A DNA stretch of 64,000 nucleotides from Octopus sinensis (lineage: Eukaryota): positions 24,754-88,753 of the forward strand of contig NW_021833034.1 in NCBI RefSeq assembly GCF_006345805.1, read 5' to 3'. This document shows, piece after piece, positions 20,686-63,423 of this stretch (position 1 is its first letter; each line of letters opens with the position of its first letter). Position numbers and translations under genes: made by a program. The notes under the pieces are model-generated. The model saw only the letters and a program-made list of their open reading frames with translations. It ran no database searches and was not told the origin of the DNA.

Positions 20686-20737
20686 CTTTTGAATGAAATC
20701 CTTCATTTTTCTCTCTATTTAGATATTCAGTAAATAG
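20686..20737 (-). CDS. PARP14: Macro-PARP exon D (last helix of macrodomain module 1)
   Basis: Acceptor ttttttcacag, donor gtaaac, 52 nt, phase 0->1, LFTEYLNREKNEGFHSK. Continues VVYPQDTEIAK of exon C and is a paralog of exon D'. Confidence 0.75.
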
Positions 20738-20819
20738 CTGTGAAAAAAAAAATAACAATCAATCATTTTTATGTTTAATTTTTTTGTCATTTTATAAAGA
20801 GAAGAAAAGAGAAAAAGCA

Positions 20820-22010
20820 AAATCAAAGGAAGGTTAATGGGGAAGATAGTTTTTGTGTGTGGCAAATGCTCAGGGGCATTAAACACTGAAAAATGTACAG
20901 AAAACAGCTTCTGTCACATTTCGTTAACTAGGTGACCAAGTTAGTAGCAGTGGTGGATGCTCTGAGGGCATAGCTGCTAGAATAGGAATAACCTGGGCAA
21001 GTTCTTATCTCTACTGGTAACAAAGGGCCTCTCACTCAGAGTGAAAGGTAGATTGTATGATACATGTGGGTGAACAGCCATGCTACATGGCAGTGAAACA
21101 TGAGCCATGACTGCTGAGGACATGCATAAGCTTGCAAGAAATGAAGCCAGTATGCTCCGATGGATGTGTAATGTCAGTGTGCATACACAACAGAGTGTAA
21201 GCGCCCTGAGAGAAAAGTTGGATTTAAGAAGCATAAGATGTGATGTGCAAGAGACGACAGCACTGGTATGGCCATGTGTTGCGAATTGTTGAGGAGAGCT
21301 GTGTGAAGAAGTGTCACACCCTAGCAGTTGAAGGAACCTGTTGAAGATGTAGACCCAGGAAGACCTGAGATGAGGTGGTGAAGCATAACCTTTGAACAAT
21401 GGGCCCCACAGAGGCAATGATGAGCAACGGAGACCTTTGGAGATATGCTGTGCTTGAGAAAACTCAGTAAGCCAAGTGAGACCATAACCATGGCCTGTGC
21501 CAGTGTAGAATAACCAGCCCATTTAAGAGTACCCTTCAATCATTAGCCAATAAACTGCACTTGAGGAGACCTGCTGAGACAAGTGAAGTCGTTGTCATGG
21601 CCAATGATAGTACCACCTGATTGGCACCCGTGCTGGTGGATTGTAAAAAACTCCATTCAAGCTTGGTCAGTGTCAGTACTGTCTAACTGATCCCGTGCCG
21701 GTGATACATAAAAAGAAAACATTCGAGTAGAATCATTACTTGTGCCGCCTGACTTGTCCCATGCTGGTGGCATGTAAAAAGCACCATTCAAGCGTGGCTG
21801 ATGCCAGTATCGCTCGACTTGCCCTCGTGCAGGTGGCACATAAAAAGCACCCACAACACTCTCAGAGTGGTTGGCATTAGCAAGAGCATCCGGCTGTATA
21901 AACATTACCAGATCAGATTGGAGCCTGGTGCAGCCATCTGGTTCGCCAGACCTCAGTCAAATCGTCCAACCCATGACAGCATGTAAAGTGGACGTTAAAC
22001 GATGATGATA
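20820..22010 (+). mobile_element. RTE 3' portion inserted beside exon D
   Basis: MTAEDMHKLARNEASMLRWMC, ~55-bp tandem units in the 3' UTR and a (GAT)n tail. Absent from the paralogous site at ~39240. Confidence 0.8.
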
Positions 22011-22019
22011 ATAATTTTT

Positions 22020-22612
22020 TAAACAGAAAAGATTTAATTTAACAAAAGACAAACAAAATATTTAAAATATTTAATGATTTATTTCTAATCAGTAATAAGT
22101 AAATGAGGAAAATTACTTTTATCACTCAGATCAAAGATATTCCATCCATGGCCTTCCAGTCTACTGGGAGACATGGTATTATAGTGGATGTGGCAGAGAG
22201 ACCTCTCACATGGCCACTGATGTGGTGTTAGTGAAGTTAAACATGTGGCCATGGTGTCTTCATGTAGCTGAAGTTGTATTGTTTCTTCTCTCCACTCACC
22301 ATTCTGATTAAAACTGCTGAGTCTTGTGTTTGCTGTTGAAATGTCTATCAAGAATGTTGAAGTTGAGGTTCTTTGGTGCATCTTGTGTCCCCAAGAATAT
22401 TTGCAGCACAAAAGCAGAGTACAAGGTTATTATTTTCATATTGTAAGCAAGAAGGAGGAGGTGGAGGAGGTCCAACAATTAGGGTCATGGTCATTCATAA
22501 GAGAGATGACAAAGGAAAAGAGAAAAGATTCAAAAAGAAAGAACTTCACAAACAGTTCTACAGTGGACAGGAATTTCCCCTATTTCTTCATTACAGCGTA
22601 TGGACATAAAGA
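22020..22612 (+). repeat. Second duplicated intron block, paralogous to ~39236-39824
   Basis: Near-identical ~590 bp; ORFs 22085/39341 and 22373/39538 share peptide strings. Confidence 0.9.
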
Positions 22613-22619
22613 AAGCAGT

Positions 22620-25290
22620 AGATAAGAATTGTGTAGGTTGTCCACATTTCCATATAGTCAGCTGCACAGACTACAAATTTGTAACTTGTACACTTGACTC
22701 AGGTAAGACAAATAGGCCAGGTCTCGGTTAGTGGAAGCTGACTGCGTCATTCACAGCACGCCAGGCTTACAGGGACTAGATTAGCACATTAGTTAAGAGG
22801 GCATCGATGGGTGCCATTATCAACAACAGATGGTAGTATGCTCTAAAGAAAGCAATTAAAAAGCTGAATCGGTTAGGTACAGTAAGGCCCTAGCATTAGA
22901 CCAAAATAGAATAGAGGGAGACCTAGTTAAGAATTTAGAAGAGGCACTTAGAACTGGCATTGTGTCCAATGTACTGGGAGCGAGGTTGGCCCTCGACCAA
23001 CACCTAAATGCCAAACACAAAGAACACATTGACCAGAGCTAGGATGCATGCTCTGAGGAAGGAGTTGGAGCCACCCGAAAGGCCTAAGTGGCAGAGGCGC
23101 AACGAGGCAACAGAGCCACCATTAGGTCACTTACAAATGAACAGGAGTGCGAATTACTCGAGCCTGAATGAATGTGTGAAGCCTTTCAACAACACTTTGC
23201 CTGACTGTTTGGGACAACTGGTGGGTCAGAATGCAGAGTGGACTTTAGTGCCTACCTGCTTGCCCTGCCACGAGTCTCAGCAAGAGAGGCAGAGTGTTGT
23301 GAAAGACCCATCACAGCCGTGGACATATGGGATGCGATGGCAGGCTGCACGAGAGACAAGTCACCAGGCGTGGATGGTCTGCCCTACGAACTTTATTGTC
23401 ATATGCCAGACTTGTTTAAAGGCATCTTGGCAGCAGTCTACTGCAACTGGCAGCAAAACGGAAGTATCCCCATCTTTGTAAAGTGAGGAGCAGTGAAACT
23501 GCTAAAGAAAGATTCAAACAAGGGAGACGACATAGATTACTTCAGGCCCATCACTCTGCTCAACGCAGATTTGAAAATAGTCGACAAGATGCAATATGCA
23601 CCATGCCAGGTCGGAGTATCCATGACAACCTCCATCTGATGCGCTACATCATAGACAGGGTAGTTAAGGATCCTGGCATGGGTGGGGCGCTGATCAATTT
23701 GGATCAATCAAAACCCTTCGATAGGGTAGATCATCACTACTTGGAGGCTGTCCTTAAAGCAGCTGGTTTTGGTCCCACCTTCTGTAATTGGATCACTGCC
23801 TTATACAGCGGCATCAGCCTGGTAGTTCGCGTAAATGGTCATCTATCCAAACCATTTAACATCATGCATTTGGTTCATCAAGGATGCCCCCTCTCGTAGC
23901 TCTTGAGTCACTACTGCGGAAGCTGGTGATGCTGAGGGGCATCCCATGAGAGCTGGGATGCAGGAGAAGTGTGTCTGCATATGCGGACAACATCACCATC
24001 ATAGTGTCGAGCCACAAGCACATCGATCTGGTCGGCAAGACACTAAAACAATACAAAGTGGTAACGGGAGCAAAAATTTACTGGGAAAAGTCAGTGGGTT
24101 TGCAGCTTGGCACCTGGAGAAGCAAGCCCATGCCGTCCAACAGCGTCTCCATCATGGGACACTGGACCGATTAAATTGCTCATTGTCTGGTTCAGTCCGG
24201 ACCTCCAAATGGAGAAGAACTGGGGTGAAAGAATGACTAGGGTGACCACTCTCACCCAGCAATGGGCTGAGAGGAAGCTATCCCTAAAAGATCAGGTGGA
24301 GGTGGCGAATGCATACATCACATCCATCATCGAGTACCGTCTGACCATTGTACCTTGTCTCGACCCTACCATCACCAAACTGGAATGCATATTCTTCCAC
24401 TTCCTGTGAAAGGGAAGCGTTCTAATGGTTAGGCGATCCATTTGCTGTCAACACCTGCTAAATAAAGGGCAAAGCATGCTGTGGTTGATGATTTGTAGAC
24501 ATGCACTGAGACTGTGACATCTCTGGCACTTCATAGATGACCGTGAACAGGTGTGGTCGCCGTTTGTGCGGCACACTTTTCCACAGCTCATCTCCTTGGC
24601 CGAACTACAGTCGTGGATCAAACAGAGACCGAGGCTAGACGAATGGCACCACAAGTGTCGCTTTGCTCTAAAGCAACTCTGCTGTGCGACTTCATTACAA
24701 AAAAGGTGTTCTATAGAGGATTAGTGAAGGAGAGGTGCGACAACGTTTTTAGGCAGAATCTGGGCATCGACAAGGAACATCTGACCCACCTATTCAGGAC
24801 AACTTTCAGGCTGGGACCTATGGACAATCACCAAAGATTGCTGACCTGGCAGTGCTATTGAGAAGCATAACCTGTTCGGGATAAGCTCTACAGGCACGGT
24901 TCGAGATACACCAGGCCAACTTGCCCAGATGCGGTCAGAGCAATGAAAGCATTCTGCACACACTAGTGCAGTGTCCAACCGTTTTGGACCTGTGGGCTTA
25001 TACTGAACGGCTGCTGTCACATGTGGGACGAGTTCACCTGTCAGCTAAGTCTATCGTGACAATTGCTCTTCCACCTTCCCTCAACTGGGGAGGCAAGGCA
25101 ATCTTCATCGTACTGGTGGCCATGGTGAAAGAATGTGTGTGGTGGACTCAAGCAAAAGGATTAGAGACAACACTTACCTCTCTGGCCAATCGCTCATCAC
25201 TTTTACAAGTGCCACTTGAAAAGGAAGGTGAGAATGGAAAGGCGGGTTTTGTCTCGTGAAACTTTCAAAAAAAGGTGGGAGAATGTTTCA
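22620..25290 (+). mobile_element. Tx1/L1-clade LINE ORF2 (decayed, 5'-truncated)
   Basis: KSPGVDGLPYELY, GRSIHDNLHLMR, LINLDQSKPFDRVDH, QGCPLS, SAYADNIT and a C-terminal CPRCG..ESILHTLVQC knuckle. Confidence 0.85.
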
Positions 25291-25544
25291 GTCATTGTTA
25301 CTTGTTTCAGTCATTAGACTACAGCCTTGCTGGAGCAATACCTTGAAGAATTTTTACATGAACTAATTGATCTTTTAAGACAGATGCTTGTTTTAACATG
25401 TCATTTGCCAGACATCTAAGTTATGGGGACTTAAACAAACCAACATGGGTTCTTGAGTGGTGTATTCTGGGACTGACACAGCCACAAAGACACACATACA
25501 CACTTGTGTATATGTATGATGATGATTATCATGATCATGATGAT

Positions 25545-27904
25545 CATCATGTTTAAACGTCCACTTTCCCTGCTGGCATGGTTTGACTGAGGGCTGGAGA
25601 GCCAGAAGGCTGCACCAGGCTCCAATCTGACCTGGCAATGTTTCTACAGCTGGATGCGCTTCCTAACGCCAACCACTCCGAGAGTGATATGTGGATGCAT
25701 TTTACGTGCCACAGGCACAGAAGCTGGTCAAGCGGTCCTGGCATCCATCACGTTCAGATAGTGCTTTTTATGTGCTACTGGCACAGGAGCCAGTCAGAAG
25801 GTACTGGTATCAGTCACATTGGGGTGATGCATTTTATGTGCCACTGGAATGGAAACCAGTCATGGGGCACTGGCCACAGCTGTGATTTTTGGTTTTACCT
25901 GACTCAACAGGCCTTCTCTAGGACATCATATTGCGTGACGCATCAGGTGTACTCTCAACAGGGTCAGACATGCAACACTGGCATCGGCCATGGATACGAT
26001 TTCACTTTAGTTGCCAGGTCTTCTCAGTTGCACAACATATCTCCAAAGGTCACTTGCCATTGCCTCAGTGAGGCCCAATGTTCAAAGTTCATGCTTCACC
26101 ACCTCATCTCATGTCTTCCTGGGTCTACCTCTTCCATAGCTTCCGTCTACAAGTAGGGAGTGGCACTTCCTCACACAGCTGTCCTCATCCATACTTAACC
26201 CATGACCATACCAGCGCAGTCATCTCTCTTGCTCACCACATTTGATGCTTCTTCTGCACAACTTTTCTCTCAGGGTGCTTACACTCTGTTGTGTATGCAC
26301 ACTGACATTACACATCCAGTGGAGCATACTAGCTTCATTTCTTTCAAGCCTACGCATATCCTCAGCAGTCATGGCCCATGTTTTACTGCCGTGTAACATG
26401 GCAGTTTGCATCATACAGTCTACCTTTCATCCTGAGCGAGAGGCCTTTAGTTGCCAGGAGGGGTAGGATCTCCCTGAACTTTGCCCAGGCTATTCTTTTT
26501 CTAGTGGTAACACTCTCTGAGCATCCACCCCAACTACTACCTTGCCCACCTAGGTAGCAGAAGCTAACAACTACTTCTAGTTTTTTCCCTTGTCATGTGA
26601 TAGAATATGTTTTCTGTATATCTTCAGTGCTTATTGCCCCTGTGCATTGGCCACACACAAAAACTATTTTCCTGGTTAACCTTCCTTTGATTTTGCTAAA
26701 CCTTTTATGTGTCCATAGCTTACACTGGGTGCATTGTAAGGAGCTTCTACCCATGCCTTTTCTACTGCTCGGTTCACAAATGGCCTTTACAAACTCTTTA
26801 CATGAACACCACCCTGTACATAACTTCATGTCCCCCTACATGGCCTTGCTTTTTGCTTTTTGAGCCAAAAAACTAACCAACTAACTAACTAACTACAGAT
26901 CAAGCAGGATCATCTACCTGAAGGGGTTTGTGATTTGTCAACTTTCCTATTTACTAAGACTTTCGTTTTTGCTAGGTTAACCCTAATCCCCTTTGATTCT
27001 AGACCTTGCTTTCACACCTTAAATTCGTCTCCTGTTCTGACAGTGACTCAGCTATTAGAGCAAGGTCATCAGCATAGAGGAGCTCCCAAGGGCAGCCTGT
27101 CTTGAATCTCTCTGTTATTGCCTGGAGGACTATAATGAACAAGACCGGCTGATGACTGATCCCTGGTGAACCACTTCTAACCAGAATTCTTCACTATACT
27201 CGTGGCCAACCCCCACCTTACTAACAGCATCCCTGTGCAGGGTTTGTACAGCTCTTAACAACCACTCTTACGAATCCCCAGTCTCCACGTTGACCACCAG
27301 AGAAGGGATCAGGGGACCTGTCAAAGGCTTTTTTCATGTCAATGAAAGCCAAGTATAGAAGTTTATCTTTGGCTAGATATTTCTCCTGCAGCTGTCTTAC
27401 CAGAAATATAGCATCAGTGGTGCTTCTGCCTGGCACAAAACCAAACTGCATCTTATCTAGGCTAACTCTCTCCCTAATTAGTTGGACTATGACCCTCTCT
27501 GTAACTGTCATCACCTGATCCAATAATTTGATACCTCTGTAGTTATTTCTATCTAAAGCATCACCTTTCGCCCTTGTGACAGTTTGAATATGGTGCTGCA
27601 ACACCAGTCATTGGGTATGACTCCTTCATGAACTACATGATGGTGGGTGACAAGACCCTAATCCACACCACCCGATATTTTAAGCATCCCTGCAGTGTCT
27701 TCATATCCTTAATTGCTTTATCTACAGGGTCCCTCAATTGGGTCAATCTTTGGAAGATTCTCCTCCTCCCAATTCATTCTCCACATTCAGCAGTCTTTCA
27801 TAATGCCATCTCCAAGCCTCTTTCTTTGCAGAATCATAAACACAAGGGCACCATCTTCCATGCAAACACATTTCTCTCCTATAGCATCACAGTTTTCTCT
27901 CACA
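25545..27904 (-). mobile_element. RTE 3' half, minus strand (duplicated at ~57865-60232)
   Basis: KGDALDRNNYRGIKLL..QFGFVPGRSTTDAIF..AFIDMKKAFD, followed by the 3' UTR. Confidence 0.85.
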
Positions 27905-29611
27905 CACTGTGGAAACTAGGGATAGATGAATGGTTAGTGAAAGCTGTGCAAGCCATGTAAAAGGATGCTGTCAGTAAGGTGAGGGTTGACAATGAGTACA
28001 GTGATGAATTCTGGATAGGGGTAGGGATCCACCAAGGATCAGTGCTCAGCCCCCTCCTATTCACCACAGTCCCCAGGCAATAACAGAGGAATTCAGGAGA
28101 GGATATCCCAGGGGAGCTCCTCTATGCTGATGACCTTGCTCTAATTGCTGAGTCACTATCAGAACTAGAGGAGAAATTTCGGGTGTGGAAGCAAAGATTA
28201 GAATCGAAGGGCCTTAGAGTCAACCTAGTTAAAACCAAAGTCCTAGTAAGTAGGAAGTCAGACAAATCGCAAATTCCTTCAGGTAGATAGCCCTACTCGA
28301 TCTGTAGAAAAGGTGTAGGTAGAAACTCCGTAAGATGTACCCAGTGTAAGCTATGGATGCATAAGAGGTGCAGCAATATCAAAGGAAGGCTAACTGGAAA
28401 GATAGTTTTTGTATGTGGCAGATGCTCAGGAGCAATAAACACAGAAAATGTGCAGAGAACAGCTTCTGTCACATTCCTAGGGAGAAAAACTAGAAGTAGT
28501 TGATAGCTTCTCTTACCTAGGTGACCAAGTCAGTAGCAGGGGTTGATATTCTAAGAGTGTAGCTGCTAGAATAAGAATAGCCTGGGCAAAGTTCAGAGAG
28601 CTCTTACCTCTGCTGGTGACCAAAGGCCTCTCGTTCAGAGTAAAAAGTAGACTGTATGACATATGTGTGCAATAAGCAATGCTACATGGCAGTGAAACAT
28701 GGGCCATGACTGCTGAGGACATGCGTAATCTTGCAAGGAATGAAACCAGTATGCTCCGCTGGATGTGCAATGTCAGTGTGCATGCACAACAGAGTGTAAG
28801 CACCCCGAGAGAAAAGTTGGACTTAAGAAGCATCAGATGTGATGTGCAAGAGAGATGACAGCACTTGTATGGCCATGTGTTGTGTATGGATGAGGACAGC
28901 TGTACAGCTGTGTGAAAAAGTGTCACACCCTAGCAGCAGAGAGAACCTAGCAGTAGAGGGAAGACCTGGGATGAGGTGATGAAGCACGACCTTCGAACAT
29001 TGGGTTATACCGAGGCAATGATAAGTGACCGAGACCTTTGGCGATATGCTGTGCTTGAGAAGACTCAGCAAGCCAAGTGAGACTGTAACCATGACATATG
29101 CCAGTGTAGCTTAACCAGCCCGTTTAAGAGTACCCTTCAATCATTGGCCAATAAACTGCACTTGCAAAGACCTGTTGAGACAAGTGAAGTCATTGTCACG
29201 GCCAATAACAGTACTTCCTGATTGGCTCCTCTGCCAGTGGTACATTAAAAGCACCGTTCAAGCGTGATCTTTGCCAGTGCCACCTGACTGGTTCCTCTGC
29301 CAGTGGCATGTAAAAAGCATCATTTGAGCATGGTCGATGCCAGTGCCAGCTGACTGGTCCTGTCCTGATGGCATGTAAAAAAAACCAGTCGAGTGTGATC
29401 ATTGCCAGTACCACCTGACTGGCCCTTGTGCTGGTGGCATTTGAAAAGCACCCACTACACTCTCAGAGTGTTTGGCGTTAGGAAGGGCATCCAGCTCTAG
29501 TAAGTTTGCCAGATTGGAATGAAGCCTGGTGCAGCCTTCTGGCTTGCCAGCCCTCAATCAAACCGTCCAACCCATGCCAGTTTGGAAAGCGGATGTTAAA
29601 TGATGATGATG
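27905..29611 (+). mobile_element. RTE 3' half, plus strand (duplicated at ~60233-61934)
   Basis: WKLGIDEWLVKAVQAM, LLYADDL, and the 3' UTR with a (GAT)n tail ending ~40 bp from the exon C donor. Confidence 0.85.
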
Positions 29612-29650
29612 TTGAACATAAAACAACAAACAACAAATACATCAACCAAC

Positions 29651-29878
29651 CTTTGCTATTTCTGTGTCTTGAGGATAAACCACAAAGTTTACAACTTTGA
29701 TCTGGCTTGAATTTAGATCTGAGTAGTTTTTCACTGCTTCATACATTGTTCTGGGTAGGTTTTCAATGGGGTACTTCAATGTTCCAGCCCCTAATATAGG
29801 AAATGCAAGGCTTTTTGCTCCCAATCCCTCAGCCTTTTCCAGACAAGTGGTTATTATTTGAGTCAAGTTTGCCAGAAT
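29651..29878 (-). CDS. PARP14: Macro-PARP exon C (macrodomain C-terminal half, module 1)
   Basis: 228 nt, phase 0->0, AG/GT boundaries. ILANLTQIITTCLEKAEGLGAKSLAFPILGAGTLKYP..IKVVNFVVYPQDTEIAK contains the macrodomain SIAFPAIGTG-type loop. Confidence 0.9.
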
Positions 29879-30485
29879 CTATAAAAATAAGTGTTTAGCA
29901 ATTGATAATGAACATTTTATTAAATATTTTCTTATAACAGAAGAAACCATTTAGTTGTAATAAATATATTCTCCTCTCACAATTCCTCTCACTCCTACCA
30001 CTTCTAAACACAACTGTCATTCCTATCACTCTTTAGTCCTGCAAGGGACAAGGCAACCTCACTCATGTTGCTGCTACAATAAAACAGACCCAATCCACCG
30101 TATAAAATGATTGGTGAATGAAGAGAGACAATGCAGACTCAAGAGGAGTCTTTAGTGTTGTTGAGGACATGACAACCTCTCTAGTGCTCGTGCCATGACA
30201 GAGAAAAACTCACCAATACAGACAGTAAAACAGAGAAATATGTTTTAATATAGTCTTATTTATCAGTCACATAACTGCTGTTAGGCCATGAGGCTTTTTC
30301 CCTTCTATTTATATATAAAAGTGTCCTGTTCATCGATATCTTCTGCTTCCTTCCAATGATAACTTGGAAGAACAAATATTAAACAGGATGCTGACATTTG
30401 CTTTATGATTCTCACACAACATGCATAAGGTTCTCTTCAAACATTAACTGTTTCAATAAATCAATATCATATTATTGATACTTAC

Positions 30486-30713
30486 TGAATCAGGGGAATT
30501 TTCATCCCAGGGAGGTAATACCAGATGAAATACATTCTTACAGTTGAGGTTATATCCTTTAGTGACGGCTATTTTAGATGTAGAAATACCTTGAGGATAT
30601 CTCTGGTTACATTCGTTTTGTATCTCAGGACCAGCAGCAAGGAGAATAAATTTGGAGATAGAACCATTGTTAAGCTCAAGGTTTTTATTGGTGCTGTTAA
30701 CGATGACATCAAG
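30486..30713 (-). CDS. PARP14: Macro-PARP exon B (macrodomain N-terminal half, module 1)
   Basis: Acceptor ttttcag, donor gtaagt, 228 nt, phase 0->0. LDVIVNSTNKNLELNNGSISKFILLAAGPEIQNEC..IAVTKGYNLNCKNVFHLVLPPWD is a typical macrodomain. Not in the ORF track on this strand. Confidence 0.9.
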
Positions 30714-30990
30714 CTGAAAAAGTAATTAATGGTAAACAACTAAGGAACATTCCATGGAGAGAAGAGAGATACATTGTTGCAGTTGATATTGTTGTTAAGA
30801 AAGGCTCTACAGAATGGCTGTAGTAAGTTTGAGGTTGTTAAAGTTAGCAAAAGATATACTCAAGATATCAGATGTGAAGGAAATAGAATGTTTGAGTTTG
30901 AGAAAATGTTTTAATTAACTTTAATGATTCCTCATTTGGAAATGAAATAACAATTAAATATAAATAAGTTACATGAATCTATTTACTCAC

Positions 30991-31127
30991 AGATACATTA
31001 GAAATTGAATCAATCATTAGGTTTATTTCAATGCCATCATATTCTTTGGATGTCTCATTAGTTCTGGGTGTCATAGAGGATGGTTCCTGTTGTGAGCCAG
31101 GAAGGGATGCATTTGACGATGCAGTGT
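30991..31127 (-). CDS. PARP14: Macro-PARP exon A (linker plus first macro strand, module 1)
   Basis: Acceptor tttatttccag, donor gtgagt, 137 nt, phase 1->0, (D)TASSNASLPGSQQEPSSMTPRTNETSKEYDGIEINLMIDSISNVS. Confidence 0.8.
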
Positions 31128-31424
31128 CTGGAAATAAACAAAATTCTTTATTTGCTTTGTTTTGTTTCTAATTTTTAATCAAACATTCTTCTCTGTATTT
31201 AAAGAACTACTTTATTCCATATCGGTTGGAAATTTTGGCACAGGGCCATCAATTTCAAGAGGCACCAAAAGTTGATTTTTTTGACTCCAGTTTTCAACTG
31301 GTTCTCATTTTATAGACCCTGAAACGATGCAACTCAGACTGATGAAATGCAGCTAAACATTTCACCCAATTTGCTGATGATCGTACCTTACAATAATAAT
31401 AATAATGATAATAATAATAATAAA

Positions 31425-33797: not shown

Positions 33798-33996
33798 CAA
33801 TAATAATAACAATAACAATAATAATAATAATAATAATAACAATAACAATAATAATAACAAAAACAATAATAATAATAATAATAATAACAATAACAATAAC
33901 AATAAAATAATAATAATAACAATAATAATAATAATAATAATAAAACAATAATAATAATAATAATAATAATAACAATAATAATAATAAAACAATAAC

Positions 33997-34031
<35 letters not shown>

Positions 34032-37400: not shown

Positions 37401-37522
37401 AACATCCATCCATGAATTTATTTCATCATCATTCATTTAACGTCCGCTTTCCATGCTAGCATGGGTTATTTATTAATTTTTAAATACATATCTTATCTGT
37501 GAATTTGCATGTGCAATCTGGG

Positions 37523-38795: not shown

Positions 38796-38895
38796 ACATA
38801 GAGATATAAGCATGCGCAAATGAAGACATACAATAGAAATACAAAATGGCTGATGGTTAGTAAGGAGAGACACAAATAAGAAAGAAGAAAGCAAA

Positions 38896-39126: not shown

Positions 39127-39181
39127 CTTTTGAATGAAATTCTTCACTTTCCTGTTTACTTAGGAGATATTCATCAAATTT
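39127..39181 (-). CDS. PARP14: Macro-PARP exon D' (last helix of macrodomain module 2)
   Basis: Acceptor tttttacag, donor gtaaac, 55 nt, phase 0->1, KFDEYLLSKQESEEFHSK. Joins exon A in frame (G+AC = Asp). Confidence 0.75.
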
Positions 39182-39939
39182 CTGTAAAAATCAAAACCAT
39201 GATTATCATTTTTGTTTAAGTTTTTGATTTTTTTTAAAGAGAAGAGATTTAATTTAACAAAAGACAAACAAAATATTTAAAATATTTAATGATTTATTTC
39301 TAATCAGTAATAAGTAAATGAGGAAAATTACTTTTATCACTCAGATCAAAGATATTCCATCCATGGCCTTCCAGTCTACTGGGAGACATGGTATTATAGT
39401 GGATGTGGCAGAAAGACCTCTCACATGGCCACTGATGTGGTGTAGTGAAGTTAAACATGTGGCCATGGTGTATTCATGTAGCTGAAGTTGTATTGTTTCT
39501 TCTCTCCACTCACCATTCTGATTAAAACTGCTGAGTCTTGTGTTTGCTGTTGAAATGTCTATCAAGAATGTTGAAGTTGAGGTTCTTTGGTGCATCTTGT
39601 GTCCCAAGAATATTTGCGGCACAAAAGCAGAGTACAAGGTTATTATTTTCATATTGTAAGCAAGAAGGAGGAGGTGGAGGAGGTCCAACATCTCTCTTAT
39701 GGTCATTCATAAGAGAGATGACAAAGGAAAAGAGAAAAGATTCAAAAAGAATGAACTTCACAAACAGTTCTACAGTGGACAGGAATTTCCCCTATTTCTT
39801 TATTACAGCATATGGACATAAAGAATGCCTTTTGGTATTAACACTGCTTCTGTTGCTATTAATTATCTTTAATAAGCCTTCAGGCTATTTGTGACATCAG
39901 TGTCTATATATCGTTGACACAGAGATTTGACTGTTATGT

Positions 39940-51200: not shown

Positions 51201-51870
51201 AGCCTCATCCAGCCGTCACAATTCGGATTTATTCCTAACTCCAGCTGCTGTAATCAACTCATCGAGTTTCTTGAGGATGTTACCCAAATCACTGATCGCG
51301 GATCCTGGGTGGATGTTGTTTACCTGGACTTTGCTAAGGCTTTTAACTCTGTGCCACACAAAAGACTTATGGTGAAGCTCTCTGCATTGGGCGTAAGAGA
51401 CAAACTCTATAACTGGTTGAAGTCCTTTATTTTCAGCCGAAAAGAGGTTGTCACAGTTCTAGGACAGCACTCTTCACCCTATGAGATGACATCTGGTGTA
51501 CCACAGGGATCTGTTCTTGGCCCCCTTTTATTTGTTGCATATGTTAATGACATAGATGCCAACTTAAAGAATGCCAAAGTGCTGAAATATGCAGATGACA
51601 TCAAGCTGTACCTCCAAATAAAGAGGTCAAATCCTGTACACTATAGATCTCTATTGCAAGCAGACCTGGACACAATGCAGCAGTGGATCATGGACTGGCA
51701 ACTCAAGCTGGCTGTGGACAAATGTACCACCATGCATTTTGGGAGGAGAAACCCAGCGTCCACCTACTCCCTCCACAACACTAGTCTAAAAAGTCTTCAT
51801 GTGAACGTGACCTGGGTGTTATTGTCGACAGTGATTTGCGTTGGACAAAACACATCGCTAAAATTGTCAG
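48240..51870 (+). mobile_element. CR1-clade LINE, ORF1 (Cys-rich PHD-like) + ORF2 (APE-RT), 3'-truncated
   Basis: CHLC..WVECSKC..FQCLTC in ORF1. ORF2 has LNARSL..ITVTETW, YRPP, GDFNFPEIDW, SDH, VVYLDFAKAFNSVPH, GVPQGSVLGPLLF and KYADDIKL. Confidence 0.85.
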
Positions 51871-54800: not shown

Positions 54801-57460
54801 TCACAGCAGCAGATGTGTGGGATATGATGGCAGAGTGCTTGAGGGACAAATTGCTGAGTTTGGATGGTCTGCCCTATGAGCTTTACAGTTGTATGCCAGA
54901 CTTGTTTGGAGGCATATTGGGAGCATCCCCAGTTTTGTGAGCCAAGCAGCCATAACACTGCTAAAGAAAGACCCAAACAAGGGGGACGTAATAGATAACT
55001 TTAGGCTCATCACTCTGCTTAATGCAGATTTGAAGATTTTGGCCAAGGTGCTAACCAAGAGGTAGGTACTTGTCATTGAGAAACTGGTTGACAAGACGCA
55101 AACATGCACCATGCCGGACCAGAGCACCCATGACAACCTCCACCTCATGCGCTACATAGACAGGTTAGTTAAAGAACCTGGCATGGGTGGGGCACCAATC
55201 TCAAATCATTCCAATACCCAAAAAAGGCGATTTATCCCTCATCACCAACTACAGGGGTATATCTCTAATGTCAATTGCTGCAAAACTGTACAACAAACTG
55301 ATCCTAAATCGTCTTGTCCTTTTTGTTGAACCTTTGCTCCGAAAGAACCAAAATGGATTCAGACATGGGCGCTCAACGCTGAGCCAGATACTATGCCTAC
55401 GCAGACTTATTGAAGAATCAAAAGCATTTAATCGCGATCTTGCAATGGTATTTGTAGACTTTTCTAAAGCGTTCAATTCTGTAGATAGGTACAAGATGTT
55501 TGAAATCCTTAAGCTCTATGGGATACCAGACAAAATCATTTCTGCCATCAAGGTCCTCTACACAGATACGTCTTCAACCATCTTAACCCCTGACGGAGAA
55601 ACATCATCTTTCTCAATCAAAGCCGGAATACTGCAGGGAGACACACTCGCCCCATTTCTTTTCATCATTGTTGTTGATTATGTGCTACGTATGTCAGTTG
55701 ATACCATCTCTGGCAAGGGCTTTGAAATAAAACCAAGAAGAAGTTCCAGACACCCAGCTGAGTACTTGACAGACACTGACTTTGCTGACGACATCGCTCT
55801 TATCAGTGATTCTCTCTCCAATGACCAGTCTCTTTTACAATCTCTCGAACAAGCCTCAAATTGTGTAGGTCTTTACCTCAATGAGGCCAAAACTGAATAT
55901 ATAAACAAGTGCCTGTCCAACAGTGATTGCATCATCCACACTCTCAACAATGCACCCTTAAATATGGTTTCTGATTACAAATATCTTGGGTCATACATAT
56001 CATCATCTGGAAAATATTTTCTAACTAGAAAGGGTATGGCCTGGTCAGCCTGTAATGACATGCATAAGATCTGGTCATCAAATCTAAGTAGAGACTTCAA
56101 ACTTGAAATATTCAAAGCCACAGTCGAACCAATTCTACTATATGGCTCAGAAACCTGGACGTTATCAAAGAAGCTTGAGAGGCGGTTGGATGGAACCTAC
56201 ACTCGCCTCCTTATGAGAGCTCAAAATCTCTCGTGGAAGTGCCATCCAACCAAAATGCAAATATATGAGAAACTACCACCTGTATCATCTCTTGTGAAAG
56301 GTAGGAGAGTCCAGTTTGCTGGACATTGTTGTAGAGCTGAAAAAGAAGTAATTTCTACTCTTCTCCTCTGGAAGCCATCTACTCGCAATACCAGAGGGCG
56401 CACACTCTCCTACCCTGATGTAATCTCCAGGGATACAGGCATCCAGCAACAGGACCTCCATAATGCTATGATGGACCGTGAAGTCTGGCGTAACATAGTA
56501 AATTCCATTGTCTCGACCACGGTCGAACAATGATAATGATGATGGGTGGGGCACTGATCAATTTAGATCACTCCAAGGCTTTCAATAGGGTAGACCATCG
56601 ATACTTGGAGGCTGTCCTCATAGTGGCTGGTTTCGGTCCCGTCTTCTGCAAATGGATCACTGCCTTATACAAAGGCATCCATTCACTAATTTGTATGAAT
56701 GGGCATCTATCAAGACCATTCAACACTGCATGTTCAGTCCATCAGAGATGCCTTCTCTCTTCGCTTCTGTACGTATTGACCCCCGAGCCACAACTGCAGA
56801 AACTGGTGATACTGAGGGGCATCCCAAGAGAATTGGGATGCAGGATGAGCATGTACACATACACGGATGATGTCACCATCATAGTGTCTAGCCATGACCA
56901 CATCGAGCTGGTTGGCGAGACACTGAAAGACTACAAATGGTAACAGGAGTGAAGATTAACCGGGAAAATTCAGTGGGCTTGCAGCTTGGCACCTGATGAA
57001 GCAAGCCCATGCTGTCATGGGATGCTGTACTGACAGTCCAGTCAAATTGCTCAGGGTCTGGTTGGTCCAGACCTCCAAACAGAGAACTGGGACGAGATAA
57101 CAAGTAAGGTGGTCACTCTCACCTAGCAATGGGCCGAGAGGAAGCTGTCCCTAGAAGGTTGGGTGGAGGTGGCGAACACGTACATCGCGTCCGTCATCTA
57201 CTACCCCTGACCATCGTGCCTTGTCCCGACCCTACCATCACCAAACTAGAATGAATCGTTAATGATGCACAGTCTCGTGCTGAGACTGCGACATCTCCAG
57301 CTCTATGTAGATGATAGTGAATAGGCGTGGTCACCATTTGTGAAGCGCACTTTCCCACACCTCATCTCCATGACCGAACTGCAACCATGGATAAAGAAGA
57401 GACTGAGGAAGGGCAAATGGCACCGTGAGTGTTGTGTTGCTCCCAAGCAACTCTGTCAGT
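51870..57460 (+). mobile_element. Tx1/L1-clade LINE, near full length, decayed
   Basis: ORF1 with a CYLCNSEMH knuckle; ORF2 with APE (SYTDHKLV, GPGYWKLN) and RT (LINLDHSKAFNRVDH, YTDDVT). Split by the RTE insertion at 55196-56541. Confidence 0.8.
55196..56541 (+). mobile_element. Young 5'-truncated RTE-type LINE with uninterrupted RT frame
   Basis: 448-aa open frame (NYRGISL, QNGFRHGRST, FVDFSKAF, GILQGDTLAP, DFADDIAL, YKYLG, LLYGSETW). TSD atgggtggggcac at 55183-55195 and 56542-56554; TGA/ATG-type tail. Confidence 0.9.
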
Positions 57461-60400
57461 CTGTCTATCTATCTATCTTTCTTTATCTATCTATCTATTA
57501 CTGTTTCTATCTCAAGCTCTCTCCAATACACAACTAAACTTGACACTTACAGGCACTGTCCAACTTGGATTCCTTCATTGACTCATTTCAGTAATACAGT
57601 TCAATTCTTTTATCTTTTTCTTGTTTCAGTCATTAGACTACAGCCTTGCTGAAGCAATACCTTGAAGAATTTTTACATGAACTAATTGATCTTTTAAGAC
57701 AGATGCTTGTTTTAACATGTCATTTGCCAGACAGCAAAGTTATGGGGACTTAAACAAACCAACATGGGTTCTTGAGTGGTGTATTCTGGGACTGACACAG
57801 CCACAAAGACACACATACACACTTGTGTATATGTATGATGATGATTATCATGATCATGATGATCATCATTGTTTAAACGTCCACTTTCCTGCTGGCATGG
57901 TTTGACTGAGGGCTGGAGAGCCAGAAGGCTGCACCAGGCTCCAATCTGACCTGGCAATGTTTCTACAGCTGGATGCGCTTCCTAACGCCAACCACTCCGA
58001 GAGTGATATGTGGATGCATTTTACGTGCCACAGGCACAGAAGCTGGTCAAGCGGTCCTGGCATCCATCACGTTCAGATAGTGCTTTTTATGTGCTACTGG
58101 CACAGGAGCCAGTCAGAAGGTACTGGTATCAGTCACATTGGGGTGATGCATTTTATGTGCCACTGGAATGGAAACCAGTCATGGGGCACTGGCCACAGCT
58201 GTGATTTTTGGTTTTACCTGACTCAACAGGCCTTCTCTAGGACATCATATTGTGTGATGCATCAGGTGTACTCTCAACAGGGTCAGACATGCAACACTGG
58301 CATCGGCCATGGATACGATTTCACTTTAGTTGCCAGGTCTTCTCAGTTGCACAACATATCTCCAAAGGTCACTTGCCATTGCCTCAGTGAGGCCCAATGT
58401 TCAAAGTTCATGCTTCACCACCTCATCTCATGTCTTCCTGGGTCTACCTCTTCCATAGCTTCCGTCTACAAGTAGGGAGTGGCACTTCCTCACACAGCTG
58501 TCCTCATCCATACTTAACCCATGACCATACCAGCGCAGTCATCTCTCTTGCTCACCACATTTGATGCTTCTTCTGCACAACTTTTCTCTCAGGGCGCTTA
58601 CACTCTGTTGTGTATGCACACTGACATTACACATCCAGTGGAGCATACTAGCTTCATTTCTTTCAAGCCTACGCATATCCTCAGCAGTCATGGCCCATGT
58701 TTTACTGCCGTGTAACATGGCAGTTTGCATCATACAGTCTACCTTTCATCCTGAGCGAGAGGCCTTTAGTTGCCAGGAGGGGTAGGATCTCCCTGAACTT
58801 TGCCCAGGCTATTCTTATTCTAGTGGTAACACTCTCTGAGCATCCACCCCAACTACTACCTTGCCCACCTAGGTAGCAGAAGCTAACAACTACTTCTAGT
58901 TTTTTCCCTTGTCATGTGATAGAATATGTTTTCTGTATATCTTCAGTGCTTATTGCCCCTGTGCATTGGCCACACACAAAAACTATTTTCCTGGTTACCT
59001 TCCTTTGATTTTGCTAAACCTTTTATGTGTCCATAGCTTACACTGGGTGCATTGTAAGGAGCTTCTACCCATGCCTTTTCTACCTCTACGCTGGTTCAAA
59101 TGGCCTTTACAAACTCTTTACATGAACACCACCCTGTACATAACTCGATGTCCCCCTACATGGCCTTGCTTTTTGATTTTTGAGCCAAAAAACTAACCAA
59201 CTAACTAACTAACTAACTACAGATCAAGCAGGATCATCTACCTGAAGGGGTTTGTGATTTGTCAACTTTCCTATTTACTAAGACTTTCGTTTTTGCTAGG
59301 TTAACCCTAATCCCCTTTGATTCTAGACCTTGCTTTCACACCTTAAATTTCGTCTCCTGTTCTGACAGTGACTCAGCTATTAGAGCAAGATCATCAGCAT
59401 AGAAGACCTCCCAAGGGCAGCCTGTCTTGAATCTCTCTGTTATTGCCTGGAGGACTATAATGAACAAGACCGGCTGATGACTGATCCCTGGTGAACCACT
59501 TCTAACCAGAATTCTTCACTATACTCGTTGCCAACCCCCACCTTACTAACAGCATCCCTGTGCAGGGTTTGTACAGCTCTTAACAACCACTCCTACCAAT
59601 CCCCAGTCTCCATGTTGACCACCAGAGAAGGGATCAGGGGACCCTGTCAAGGGCTTTTTTCGTGTCAATGAAAGCCAAGTATAGAAGTTTATCTTTGGCT
59701 AGATATTTCTCCTGCAGCTGTCTTACCAGAAATATAGCATCAGTGGTGCTTCTGCCTGGCACAAAACCAAACTGCATCTTATCTAGGCTAACTCTCTCCC
59801 TAATTAGTTGGACTATGACCCTCTCTGTAACTGTCATCACCTGATCCAATAATTTGATACCTCTGTAGTTATTTCTATCTAAAGCATCACCTTTCGCCCT
59901 TGTGACAGTTTGAATATGGTGCTGCAACACCAGTCATTGGGTATGACTCCTTCATGAACTACATGATGGTGGGTGACAAGACCCTAATCCACACCACCCG
60001 ATATTTTAAGCATCCCTGCAGTGTCTTCATATCCTTAATTGCTTTATCTACAGGGTCCCTCAATTGGGTCAATCTTTGGAAGATTCTCCTCCTCCCAATT
60101 CATTCTCCACATTCAGCAGTCTTTCATAATGCCATCTCCAAGCCTCTTTCTTTGCAGAATCATTAAACACAAGGGCACCATCTTCCATGCAAACACATTT
60201 CTCTCCTATAGCATCACAGTTTTCTCTCACACACTGTGGAAACTAGGGATAGATGAATGGTTAGTGAAAGCTGTGCAAGCCATGTAAAAGGATGCTGTCA
60301 GTAAGGTGAGGGTTGACAATGAGTACAGTGATGAATTCTGGATAGGGGTAGGGATCCACCAAGGATCAGTGCTCAGCCCCCTCCTATTCACCACAGTCCC

Positions 60401-61973
60401 CAGGCAATAACAGAGGAATTCAGGAGAGGATATCCCAGGGGAGCTCCTCTATGCTGATGACCTTGCTCTAATTGCTGAGTCACTATCAGAACTAGAGGAG
60501 AAATTTCGGGTGTGGAAGCAAAGATTAGAATCGAAGGGCCTTAGAGTCAACCTAGTTAAAACCAAAGTCCTAGTAAGTAGGAAGTCAGACAAATCGCAAA
60601 TTCCTTCAGGTAGATAGCCCTACTCGATCTGTAGAAAAGGTGTAGGTAGAAACTCCGTAAGATGTACCCAGTGTAAGCTATGGATGCATAAGAGGTGCAG
60701 CAATATCAAAGGAAGGCTAACTGGAAAGATAGTTTTTGTATGTGGCAGATGCTCAGGAGCAATAACACAGAAAATGTGCAGAGAACAGCTTCTGCCACAT
60801 TCCTAGGGAGAAAAACTAGAAGTAGTTGATAGCTTCTCTTACCTAGGTGACCAAGTCAGTGGCAGGGGTTGATATTCTAAGAGTGTAGCTGCTAGAATAA
60901 GAATAGCCTGGGCAAAGTTCAGAGAGCTCTTACCTCTGCTGGTGACCAAAGGCCTCTCGCTCAGAGTAAAAAGTAGACTGTATGACATATGTGTGCAATA
61001 AGCAATGCTACATGGCAGTGAAACATGGGCCATGACTGCTGAGGACATGCGTAATCTTGCAAGGAATGAAACCAGTATGCTCCGCTGGATGTGCAATGTC
61101 AGTGTGCATGCACAACAGAGTGTAAGCACCCCGAGAGAAAAGTTGGACTTAAGAAGCATCAGATGTGATGTGCAAGAGAGATGACAGCACTGTATGGCCA
61201 TGTGTTGTGTATGGATGAGGACAGCTGTACAGCTGTGTGAAAAAGTGTCACACCCTAGCAGCAGAGAGAACCTAGCAGTAGGGGGAAGACCTGGGATGAG
61301 GTGATGAAGCACGACCTTCGAACATTGGGTTATACCGAGGCAATGATAAGTGACCGAGACCTTTGGAGATATGCTGTGCTTGAGAAGACTCAGCAAGCCA
61401 AGTGAGACTGTAACCATGACATATGCCAGTGTAGCTTAACCAGCCCGTTTAAGAGTACCCTTCAATCATTGGCCAATAACTGCACTTGCAAAGACCTGTT
61501 GAGACAAGTGAAGTCATTGTCACAGCCAATAACAGTACTTCTTGATTGGCTCCTCTGCCAGTGGTACATTAAAAGCACCGTTCAAGTGTGATCTTTGCCA
61601 GTGCCACCTGACTGGTTCCTCTGCCAGTGACATGTAAAAAGTATCATTTGAGCATGGTCGATGCCAGTGCCAGCTGACTGGTCCTGTCCTGATGGCATGT
61701 AAAAAAACCAGTCGAGTGTGATCATTGCCAGTACCACCTGACTGGCCCTTGTGCTGGTGGCATTTGAAAATCACCCACTACACTCTCAGAGTGTTTGGCG
61801 TTAGGAAGGGCATCCAGCTCTAGTAAGTTTGCCAGATTGGATTGAAGCCTGGTGCAGCCTTCTGGCTTGCCAGCCCTCAATCAAACCGTCCAACCCATGC
61901 CAGTTTGGAAAGCGGATGTTAAATGATGATGATGTTGAACATAAAACAACAAACAACAAATACATCAACCAAC

Positions 61974-62200
61974 CTTTGCTATTTCTGTGTCTTGAGGATA
62001 AACCACAAAGTTTACAACTTTGATCTGGCTTGAATTTAGATCTGAGTAGTTTTTCACTGCTTCATACATTGTTCTGGGTAGGTTTTCAATGGGGTACTTC
62101 AATGTTCCAGCCCCTAATATAGGAAATGCAAGGCTTTTTGCACCCATTCTCTCAGCCTTTTCCAGACAAGTGGTTATTATTTGAGTCAAGTTTGCCAGAT
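61974..62200 (-). CDS. PARP14: Macro-PARP exon C' (module 2); 1 nt shorter than exon C as assembled
   Basis: Near-identical to exon C (AERMGA vs AEGLGA), but begins ATCTGG instead of ATTCTGG, giving 227 nt and an apparent frameshift. Confidence 0.75.
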
Positions 62201-62780
62201 CTAAAAAAATAAGTGTTTAGCAATTGATAATGAACATTTTATTAAATTATTTTCTTATTACAGGAAGAAACCATTTAGTTGTAATAAATATATTCTCCTC
62301 TCACAACTGTCATTCCTATCACTCTTTAGTCCTGCAAGGGACAAGGCAACCTCACTCATGTTGCTGCTACAATAAAACAGACCCAATCCACCGTGTAAAA
62401 TGGTTGTTGAATGAAGAGAGACAATGCAGACCCAAGCGGAGTCTTTAGTGTTGCGGAAGACATGACAACCTCTCTAGTGCTCGTGCCATGACAGAGAAAA
62501 ACTCACCAATACAGAGAGTAAAACAGAGAAATATGTTTTAATATAGTCTTATTTATCAGTCACATAACTGTTGTTAGGCCATGAGGCTTTTTCCTTTCTA
62601 TTTATATATAAAAGTGTCCTGTTCATCGATATCTTCTGCTTCCTTCCAATGATAACTTGGAAGAACAAATATAAAAAACAGGATGCTGACATTTGCTTTA
62701 TGATTCTCACACAACATGCATAAGGTTCTCTTCAAACATTAACTGTTTCAATAAATCAATATCATATTATTGATACTTAC

Positions 62781-63008
62781 TGAATCAGGGGAATTTTCAT
62801 CCCAGGGAGGTAATGCCAGATGAAATACATTCTTACAGTTGAGGTTATATCCTTTAGTGATGGCTATTTTAGATGTAGAAATACCTTGAGGATATCTCTG
62901 GTTACATTCGTTTTGTATCTCAGGACCAGCAGCAAGGAGAATAAATTTGGAGATAGAACCATTGCTAAGCTCAAGGTTTTTATTGGTGCTGTTAACGATG
63001 ACATCAAG
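62781..63008 (-). CDS. PARP14: Macro-PARP exon B' (module 2)
   Basis: 228 nt, same splice sites as exon B, three substitutions (N>S, V>I, V>A). Confidence 0.88.
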
Positions 63009-63286
63009 CTGAAAAAGTAATTAATGGTAAACAACTAAGGACATTCCATGGAGAGAAGAGAGATACATTTGTGCAGTTGATATTGTTGTTAAGAAAGGCT
63101 CTACAGAATGGCTGTAGTAAGTTTGAGGTTGTTAAAGTTAGCAAAAGATGTACTCAAGATATCAGATGTGAAGGAAATAAAATGTTTGAGTTTGATTGAG
63201 AAAATGTTTTAATTAACTTTAATGATTCCTCATTTGGAATGAAATAACAATTAATATAAATAAGTTACATGAATCTATTTACTCAC

Positions 63287-63423
63287 AGATGCATTAGAAA
63301 TTGAATCAATCATTAGGTTTATTTCAATGCCATCATATTCTTTGGATGTCTCATTAGTTCTGGGTGTCATAGAGGATGGTTCCTGTTGTGAGCCAGGAAG
63401 GGATGCATTTGACGATGCAGTGT
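63287..63423 (-). CDS. PARP14: Macro-PARP exon A' (module 2)
   Basis: 137 nt, same splice sites as exon A, one substitution (V>A). Confidence 0.8.

What the first reader, a model, noticed from the sequence alone, without database searches (positions are those of the whole stretch)
20686..63423. Intragenic tandem expansion of a four-exon macrodomain module in a PARP14-like gene
Seen: the exon order on the minus strand is A'-B'-C'-D'-A-B-C-D-E-F. Each A-D set encodes a linker plus one whole macrodomain (645 nt for module 1) and starts and ends in phase 1, so it is a symmetric, freely repeatable cassette. No WWE or ART exon is visible between D' and A, so these look like repeats within one gene rather than two genes. 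Known: macro-PARPs (PARP9/14/15) are ADP-ribose readers/writers involved in vertebrate antiviral signalling and evolve rapidly. Inference: this locus is changing macrodomain copy number by unequal crossing-over, an accordion-like mechanism, and more modules may lie beyond 64000.
Basis: partly seen in the sequence, partly recalled or inferred. Interest (0 to 1): 0.75.

Follow-up and report, generated by a model that had tools for sequence, protein, structure and literature searches.

The report
Octopus PARP14 cluster shuffles reader domains
This octopus PARP14-like gene carries two 99%-identical copies of a domain predicted to bind ADP-ribose, and it belongs to a chromosomal cluster of roughly twenty related genes that hold one to four such copies each, likely reshuffled by recombination.

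Summary
The repeat is real, with corrections. Only exons A-B-C plus intron (6.1 kb, 1.1% substitutions) are a young copy. D' is 81% like D. The upstream cassette has a 1-nt frameshift in C', which may be real or a consensus error. The chromosome copy of the locus shows no further cassette beyond 64,000; a Macro1 hydrolase-type domain comes next. The gene is Macro1-MD2-MD2-(KH)-WWE-ART: three macrodomains like human PARP14, but with two MD2-like readers. It lies in an octopus cluster with 38 cassette sites and 15 ART exons in 2.8 Mb; gap-free contigs hold 2, 3 or 4 cassettes in a row. Cassettes of this gene and of its closest paralog group by gene, not by position, and recombination tests are positive, so conversion and unequal exchange are likely. 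Spliced RNA shows A-B, B-C and C-D, but no D'-A joint was seen. The window's 3' end may be a paralog mosaic. Near-identical tandem macrodomains also occur in 21 of 150 top relatives (argonaut, snails, scallop, lamprey), so the trait is recurrent. The scan noted this cluster before on other DNA of this genome. Not found in print in eight searches.

The parts
63287..63423 (-). Exon A' (linker plus first strand of macrodomain), phase 1 to 0, 137 nt
   Evidence: 1 substitution versus A
62781..63008 (-). Exon B' (N-terminal half of MD2-like macrodomain), phase 0 to 0, 228 nt
   Evidence: 3 substitutions versus B, all changing a residue
61974..62200 (-). Exon C' (C-terminal half of macrodomain), 227 nt, frameshifted by a 1-nt deletion at its start as assembled
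   Evidence: same deletion in the C1 copy; 2 of 49 extracted C exons start this way, both this copy
39127..39181 (-). Exon D' (terminal helix plus linker), phase 0 to 1, 55 nt; 81% like D, closer to the D of another paralog (93% over 181 nt at C1:208.096 Mb)
30991..31127 (-). Exon A, phase 1 to 0, 137 nt
   Evidence: A-B joint in RNA-type contigs
30486..30713 (-). Exon B, phase 0 to 0, 228 nt
   Evidence: Pfam Macro E 6e-12; B-C joint in RNA-type contigs
29651..29878 (-). Exon C, phase 0 to 0, 228 nt, intact
   Evidence: Pfam Macro; C-D joint 20737-29651 in run X6
20686..20737 (-). Exon D, phase 0 to 1, 52 nt
   Evidence: exact first 30 nt seen as loose end after exon C in run X6
5497..5598 (-). 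Optional exon E0 (acidic linker), about 102 nt, phase 1 to 1; present in model P0020, skipped in P0038
   Evidence: tblastn 78-81% to P0020; ends read from the sequence printed
5090..5271 (-). Exon E (acidic stretch plus first half of a likely split KH domain), phase 1 to 0, 182 nt
   Evidence: alpha/beta prediction at pLDDT 60-78; KH label inferred from PARP14 architecture
416..780 (-). Exon F (rest of likely KH plus WWE domain), phase 0 to 2, 365 nt; three ART exons follow outside the window (C9505:5972-11881)
   Evidence: WWE_1 by predicted structure, TM 0.75; no Pfam or PDB sequence hit; ART exons
57617..63682 (.). Upstream copy of the young 6.1-kb repeat (A'-B'-C' plus intron with retroelement fragments)
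25298..31387 (.). Downstream copy of the young 6.1-kb repeat (A-B-C plus intron)
39230..39828 (.). 600-bp intron tract 97% identical to 22015-22616; similarity to paralog X ends at 39234, a likely exchange boundary about 50 bp before D'
6819..8498 (.). Switch zone: upstream the window equals C1:207.86-207.91 Mb and C8751; downstream it equals the paralog X contig at C1:206.44-206.45 Mb

Best explanation
The window is the middle of one octopus PARP14-like gene that holds two copies of a phase-symmetric exon cassette encoding an MD2-type macrodomain, predicted to be a non-catalytic ADP-ribose reader, and these cassettes are likely gained, lost and overwritten by unequal crossing-over and gene conversion within a large tandem cluster of paralogs. 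Shown: exon structure, phase symmetry, MD2 likeness, Macro1 upstream, WWE and ART downstream in this assembly, a cluster whose genes carry 2-4 cassettes on gap-free contigs (1 in some gene models), and cassettes of this gene and of paralog X grouping by gene rather than by position. Inferred: the two-cassette layout is older than the 99% identity, which comes from a recent 6.1-kb conversion or exchange that spared D'; phase-1 ends let any cassette number, and exon or cassette skipping, keep the frame; more reader domains would raise avidity and sequence differences would vary the targets read. An immune role is carried over from vertebrate PARP14 and is untested here.
For: Cassette anatomy and phases. 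Best solved match PARP14 MD2: 98 bits versus 43 for MD1, TM 0.81-0.85. Macro1 and N-terminal exons upstream on C1. ART 150 bits to PARP14. Exon C matches 38 places in C1:205.37-208.12 Mb and an ART exon 15 places in 205.59-207.99 Mb. Four cassettes in a row on one gap-free contig, and the first three match O. vulgaris model P0007 in order at 95-100% in exons B and C. Window cassettes differ at 7 of 592 exon bases, paralog X cassettes at 7 of 590, but cross-gene pairs at 48-52, while the spacer intron between the genes differs by only 3.6%. Sister pairs 100/99; positional pairing rejected, p-AU 3e-64 and 1e-4. PHI-type test 0 of 1000 shuffles as low. Nearest neighbour differs between exons in 36 of 46 cassettes. 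Spliced joints in RNA-type contigs.
Against: No RNA joint for C'-D' or D'-A was shown, and every B-C joint listed had the 228-nt form; paralog reads cannot be separated at these settings. C' is frameshifted, and the C1 copy seems to have two more frame breaks upstream and a broken E, so this gene may be decaying. The three assembled copies are one haplotype (0 substitutions over most of their length), so they are not independent support. The window's E-F end may be a mis-join to paralog X. The gene has only three macrodomains, the ordinary PARP14 number. Overall dN/dS among cassettes is 0.77-0.79, below 1. Redundant assembly inflates cluster counts. The AU groups were run after the tree was seen.
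Confidence: 0.66

Rival explanations
1. The duplication is real but is decaying debris: the upstream cassette (or the whole gene) is a pseudogene, and cassette turnover is a neutral by-product of ectopic recombination in a retroelement-rich tandem array.
For: C' frameshift in both assembled copies. A broken E with several lesions in C8751 and C1. 11 of 49 extracted cassettes have a frame or stop defect. This gene's Macro1 has Leu where the loop-2 aromatic residue is expected (criteria from PMC10221186 section 3.1). Introns are full of RT fragments.
Against: Redundant assemblies of one haplotype differ by 29 indels in 18.5 kb, mostly in short runs, enough to explain the 22% defect rate. 10 of 13 fixed 1-nt indels between the two repeat copies are deletions in the upstream copy, a skew that suggests shared consensus error. 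About 40 of 153 codon columns are invariant over 37 cassettes. The four-cassette gene is kept in O. vulgaris. Exons are spliced in RNA-type runs.
Confidence: 0.25
2. Two separate genes: an upstream macro-only gene ending at D' and a downstream gene starting at A.
For: RefSeq model P0019 on C8751 starts inside exon A, and no D'-A RNA joint was seen.
Against: D' ends in a phase-1 GT donor with no stop and A begins with a phase-1 acceptor. No other exon lies in the 8-kb gap. Model P0038 joins them, and paralog models join D to A many times.
Confidence: 0.05
3. False duplication: two alleles of one cassette were concatenated by the assembler.
For: The region is assembled redundantly three times and shows a possible mis-join at 6.8-8.5 kb; 1.1% divergence is in the range of allelic difference.
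Against: The copies have unrelated flanks: A' follows Macro1 exons, A follows D'; D' is 81% like D; 26 kb of other sequence lies between them; paralog X has the same layout with a homologous spacer intron.
Confidence: 0.04

Closest known systems
PARP14 (human ARTD8; ancestral three-macrodomain macro-PARP of cnidarians, molluscs, vertebrates)
   Same: Macro1 first, then reader-type macrodomains, WWE and a PARP14-type ART domain; three macrodomains in this gene.
   Different: Both later macrodomains are MD2-like and 99% identical instead of MD2 plus MD3; paralogs carry 1-4 or more cassettes; some lack Macro1 (paralog X) or KH-WWE.
PARP15 and PARP9 (partial duplicates of PARP14; PMC4038475, PMC10221186, passages read)
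   Same: New architectures arise by partial duplication; some cluster genes go from macrodomains straight to ART, as PARP15 does.
   Different: PARP15 is mammalian and has MD2+MD3, PARP9 is vertebrate; the octopus forms arose separately inside an octopod clade of MD2 cassettes.
Clustered PARP14 duplicates in lancelet (at least 4), sponge (6, with one to three macrodomains) and microbat (at least 8) (PMC4245714, PMC4038475, passages read)
   Same: Tandem multiplication of PARP14-like genes with variable domain content.
   Different: The octopus cluster looks larger (22 ART-exon matches on one chromosome, redundancy not removed) and shows exon-level mosaicism and within-gene homogenisation, which those passages do not describe.
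Concerted evolution of intragenic domain repeats and birth-and-death immune gene clusters (recalled general model, no call)
   Same: Within-gene copies closer than positional copies across paralogs; mosaic exons; broken members.
   Different: Applied here to an ADP-ribose reader domain of an intracellular enzyme; copy-number polymorphism among individuals not shown.

Membership tests
PARP14-like macro-PARP | C-terminal ART domain of PARP14/15 type with H-Y-hydrophobic triad | tested here: met
   150 bits to PARP14 catalytic chains; His and Tyr aligned, Ile opposite Leu (triad positions recalled). Exons lie just outside the window on the same contig; linkage passes through the possible mosaic at 6.8-8.5 kb.
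PARP14-like macro-PARP | Tandem macrodomains N-terminal to ART | tested here: met
   Macro1 plus two cassettes
PARP14-like macro-PARP | Canonical MD1-MD2-MD3 series | tested here: not met
   Both cassettes are near-identical and best match MD2 (3q71, 98 bits); the third macrodomain of paralog P0011 also best matches 3q71
PARP14-like macro-PARP | WWE domain before ART | tested here: met
   Atlas structure match to WWE_1, TM 0.75 over residues 395-475 of P0038; Pfam and PDB sequence searches negative; own model low confidence there
PARP14-like macro-PARP | N-terminal RRM and KH array | tested here: inconclusive
   A large N-terminal exon lies at C1:207.948 Mb; an assembly gap at 207,960,546 hides the rest. 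Paralog models P0008 and P0012 have RRM_PARP14 hits.
PARP14-like macro-PARP | Hydrolase residues in Macro1 (Asn and Gly at loop 1; hydrophobic then aromatic in loop 2) | tested here: inconclusive
   Loop 1 residues present; loop 2 has Ile-Leu instead of Ile-Phe/Tyr in the C1 copy (criteria)
PARP14 macrodomain 2 (reader) | Macro fold closest to MD2, without the loop-2 aromatic residue of hydrolases | tested here: met
   TM 0.81-0.85, rmsd about 2 A to 3q71 and 5o2d; loop 2 has Thr-Leu
PARP14 macrodomain 2 (reader) | Binds ADP-ribose or mono-ADP-ribosylated targets | not testable with these tools
   needs a binding assay
PARP15 | MD2+MD3+ART without WWE, mammalian clade | tested here: not met
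   This gene has Macro1 and WWE; cassettes form an octopod clade
Accordion-type copy-number locus | Cassette number differs among genes and shows recombination | tested here: met
   2, 3, 4 cassettes on gap-free contigs
Accordion-type copy-number locus | Cassette number differs among individuals or alleles | not testable with these tools
   only one haplotype of this locus seen; run data are contigs without usable depth

The most novel reading that the evidence does not exclude
Octopuses run a combinatorial ADP-ribose reader repertoire: about twenty PARP14-like genes swap, convert and alternatively splice in-frame MD2 cassettes whose pocket-flanking loops are diversified, so each animal makes writer enzymes with different numbers and specificities of reader domains against pathogens; the same trick has evolved repeatedly in other molluscs, echinoderms and lamprey.
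Probability: 0.2. Interest if true: 0.75.

Novelty: new variant of a known kind. Interest (0 to 1): 0.45.

Why it matters
PARP14 is usually described as a fixed three-macrodomain protein, with PARP9 and PARP15 as rare partial duplicates. Here the reader domain behaves as a mobile in-frame cassette inside a large cluster, and similar young intragenic macrodomain pairs turn up in many invertebrate relatives. The physiological targets of PARP14 MD2/MD3 are still open (PMC13224862, passage read), and some 37 natural MD2 variants with variable loops give a ready panel to test whether readers recognise the modified protein and not only ADP-ribose. It also flags a cephalopod gene expansion that eight paper searches did not find described. 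If the locus is only decaying debris or partly mis-assembled, the value drops to an annotation note.

Tried and rejected
Independent haplotype support: first thought C9505, C8751 and C1 were different alleles; the substitution profile showed one haplotype assembled three times, so rejected. More cassettes upstream: none on C1 between A' and the N-terminal exon. Zero-cassette gene: model P0043 joins Macro1 to E, and C1:40.84-40.88 Mb looks alike, but an assembly gap lies in between, so inconclusive. Five- and six-cassette RefSeq models: P0001 chains across a gap and over another gene's N-terminal exon, and P0002 spans two gaps, so they are not counted as proof of more than four. RNA: no listed holder is on record as RNA; D'-A and C'-D' joints were not seen, which is no evidence either way; D' itself was never laid. 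Positive selection: no site model could be run; only tip-pair statistics, overall below 1. Pfam PARP family search of the genome did not list the cluster's ART exons; an exon query did. WWE by sequence search failed. The AlphaFold model of P0038 was poor outside the macrodomain and KH-like part (mean pLDDT 55). Earlier-findings look-ups near the window and by sequence gave nothing.
Full report
Setting. The window is the last 64 kb of contig G000:C9505, in a 2.72-Gb genome. Proteins identical to its exons are labelled Octopus sinensis PARP14-like by their sources. The same sequence is assembled again on C1:207.857-207.915 Mb (window 6819-64000) and on C8751. Over most of their length the three copies have no substitutions, so they are one haplotype assembled three times, not three alleles.

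Observation. All ten exons are present on the minus strand with canonical ends. A-B-C-D is 645 nt, phase 1 to phase 1, and B and C are each phase 0 to 0. The young repeat is 57617-63682 versus 25298-31387, with 65 fixed substitutions and 18 fixed indels in 6109 columns. It covers A, B, C and 4.3 kb of intron, not D. A', B' and C' differ from A, B and C at 1, 3 and 3 bases, while D' differs from D at 10 of 52 bases plus a 3-nt indel and is closer to the D of another paralog. A tblastn with all 46 proteins then held found no other family exon between C' and D' or between D' and A. RefSeq model P0038 on this contig joins C'-D'-A-B-C-D-E-F-ART, starting inside C'; how much read support that model has I could not see.

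The frameshift. C' lacks one base at its start; read straight, it stops at its fifth codon. Of 49 extracted C exons only the two assembled copies of C' start this way. Whether it is real is about even. Both assemblies share it, but they are one haplotype. They differ by 29 indels in 18.5 kb, mostly in short runs. Ten of the 13 fixed 1-nt indels between the repeat copies are deletions in the upstream copy. Across the cluster 11 of 49 cassettes have a frame or stop defect, about what that error rate predicts. If real, skipping C' would keep the frame but give half a domain.

The whole gene. On C1, upstream of A' come two Macro1 exons (207.923 and 207.931 Mb) and a large N-terminal exon (207.948 Mb), then a gap; there is no third cassette. 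Downstream on C9505 come E0, E, F and three ART exons. The cassette best matches PARP14 macrodomain 2 (98 bits to 3q71, 48 to 4abk, recalled as MD3, 43 to 3q6z, MD1), and the model of it overlays 3q71 and 5o2d at TM 0.81-0.85. It lacks the loop-2 aromatic residue that PMC10221186 (section 3.1 read) lists for hydrolases, so it is predicted to be a reader. F holds a WWE domain by predicted structure, though sequence searches miss it. The ART domain scores 150 bits against PARP14. The gene is therefore MD1-MD2-MD2-(KH)-WWE-ART: the ordinary number of macrodomains, but not the ordinary set.

A caution on the 3' end. Window 1-8673 differs from a paralog's contig (called X here, C1:206.38-206.45 Mb) by 20 substitutions. 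C8751 and C1 leave the window at 6819 and continue into a different, frameshifted E; C8751 rejoins at F. So the intact D-E-F link in the window is either a true recombinant or a mis-join, and I could not tell which.

The cluster. Exon C gave 67 matches: 48 rows on C1 (38 places in 205.37-208.12 Mb, 4 near 211 Mb, 5 near 41 Mb) and 19 rows on unplaced contigs. An ART exon gave 30 matches, 22 on C1, 15 of them in 205.59-207.99 Mb. These are lower bounds by the tool's note but are inflated by redundant assembly; one pair is 0-2% apart. On gap-free contigs I found 4 cassettes in a row (206.277-206.362 Mb), 3 (205.77-205.81, with frame breaks in two), 3 (205.68-205.72), 3 (207.37-207.41; two unfetched holes of 0.6 and 1.0 kb) and 2 (this gene, X). 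O. vulgaris model P0007 repeats the four-cassette gene, its first three cassettes matching in order at 95-100% in B and C. O. vulgaris model P0020 has one cassette, 98-99% like A and B of the window; whether a second is unannotated I could not check. X lacks Macro1 exons, as does O. vulgaris P0022, and some genes lack E-F. RefSeq isoforms P0002-P0006 differ by whole cassettes or part cassettes, a hint of cassette skipping that mis-mapped reads could also produce.

Mechanism. This gene and X are colinear and share the spacer intron at 3.6% divergence. Yet cassettes within each gene differ at 7 of about 590 exon bases and cassettes across the genes at 48-52. The tree of 49 rows makes each within-gene pair sisters at 100/99, and positional pairing is rejected (p-AU 3e-64 and 1e-4, 46 rows; run after the tree was seen). 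A PHI-type test on 46 distinct cassettes gave 0 of 1000 shuffles as low, and the nearest neighbour changes between exons in 36 of 46. Not all genes behave so: the four-cassette gene keeps old, position-conserved cassettes, and several pairs are not sisters. The best reading is a mix of unequal crossing-over, which changes number, and conversion, which overwrites sequence; the phase-1 ends make every outcome readable in frame. For this locus, conversion of an older duplicate fits as well as a fresh gain.

Selection. On 37 intact distinct B+C sequences (of 49; 10 dropped for frame or stop defects, 2 as identical) dN/dS is 0.79 by pairwise counts and 0.77 by a codon model, with dN above dS in 137 of 666 pairs. 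About 40 of 153 columns are invariant, and 10 have a non-synonymous rate over 2.5 times the synonymous mean, among them the residues before the loop-1 glycine and after the loop-2 motif. Nine of 37 lack the loop-2 glycine codon; the window's cassettes keep it. No significance test was possible, so diversifying selection is a lead only.

Expression. No listed run is on record as RNA. Runs X1, X3 and X6 have depth on exons and almost none on introns, and show joints at the splice sites, while X17 covers introns. Joints seen: A-B, B-C in X1, X2, X5, X6 and X3, C-D in one contig of X6, matching this gene's D exactly for 30 nt. Paralogs contribute to these. No joint with the C' start, and none to D', was listed.

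Breadth and novelty. Among the best 150 representatives of a search with P0019, 21 hold two macrodomains at least 50% identical. Named examples are Argonauta 94%, Babylonia 93%, Pecten 94%, Haliotis 95%, Patiria 86%, Saccostrea 85%, lamprey 81% and cod 70%; some may be assembly duplicates. In a tree such pairs are sisters within their own protein, and the 37 octopus cassettes form one group next to the argonaut's. So intragenic copying of MD2-like domains is recurrent, not an octopus oddity. In print, passages of PMC4245714, PMC4038475 and PMC13224862 describe clustered PARP14 duplicates in lancelet, sponge, fish and microbat, with one to three macrodomains in sponge; PMC10221186 treats three macrodomains as ancestral. 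PMC11431876 (passages) only reports a PARP14-like protein in octopus mucus. Eight searches found no description of an octopus cluster or of cassette shuffling. I read no supplements; the sequence set of PMC10221186 may include these proteins. Two earlier notes of this scan describe the same cluster on other DNA of this genome.

Verdict. A real feature and a new variant of a known kind. Interest 0.45.

Noticed in passing
window 6819-8498; C8751:48249-64231: The window switches from one paralog's sequence to another's; C8751 and C1 carry a different, frameshifted exon E and about 14 kb of mostly retroelement-like DNA before the same F exon.
   Followed up: partly
G000:C1:206,392,000-206,410,800: Paralog X has no Macro1 exons between its N-terminal exon and first cassette; O. 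vulgaris model P0022 has the same junction, so a hydrolase-less form may be shared.
   Followed up: partly
G000:C1:207,923,400-207,923,600: This gene's Macro1 has Leu instead of the loop-2 aromatic residue, and its last exon seems one base short.
   Followed up: partly
G000:C1:207.37-207.45 Mb and 205.64-205.68 Mb: Cluster genes without E-F exons go from macrodomains to ART, a PARP15-like layout reached independently.
   Followed up: partly
window 416-780: Exon F is 79% like one paralog's F and only 59-66% like the others, while E and ART match O. vulgaris models at 89-100%, suggesting an exon-scale swap.
   Followed up: no
G000:C1:206,385,165-206,390,401 and 207,949,676-207,960,545: A satellite of about 115 bp, several kb long and 95% alike, lies just upstream of the large N-terminal exon in both this gene and paralog X.
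   Followed up: no
window 37519-38798: Inverted repeat with arms of about 540 bp at 95% in the D'-A intron (fold-back element).
   Followed up: no
window 48936-56533: Retroelement ORFs in the C'-D' intron: endonuclease (49562-50137), RT (50925-51914) and a 454-codon RT frame (55169-56533); part has a 95% copy at C1:207.82 Mb.
   Followed up: partly
window 33038-33380 and 33799-34252: A 140-bp tandem repeat (2.5 copies, 98%) and an (AAT) array of about 154 units in the D'-A intron.
   Followed up: no
G000:C1:205.68-205.80 Mb: Extra A-like pseudo-exons with a stop and no donor site sit 2-3 kb before the true A exon in four cassettes of one gene.
   Followed up: no
P0047, P0054, P0059, P0097, P0150: Tandem or repeated macrodomains 81-95% identical within single proteins of argonaut, scallop, whelk, abalone and lamprey.
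   Followed up: partly
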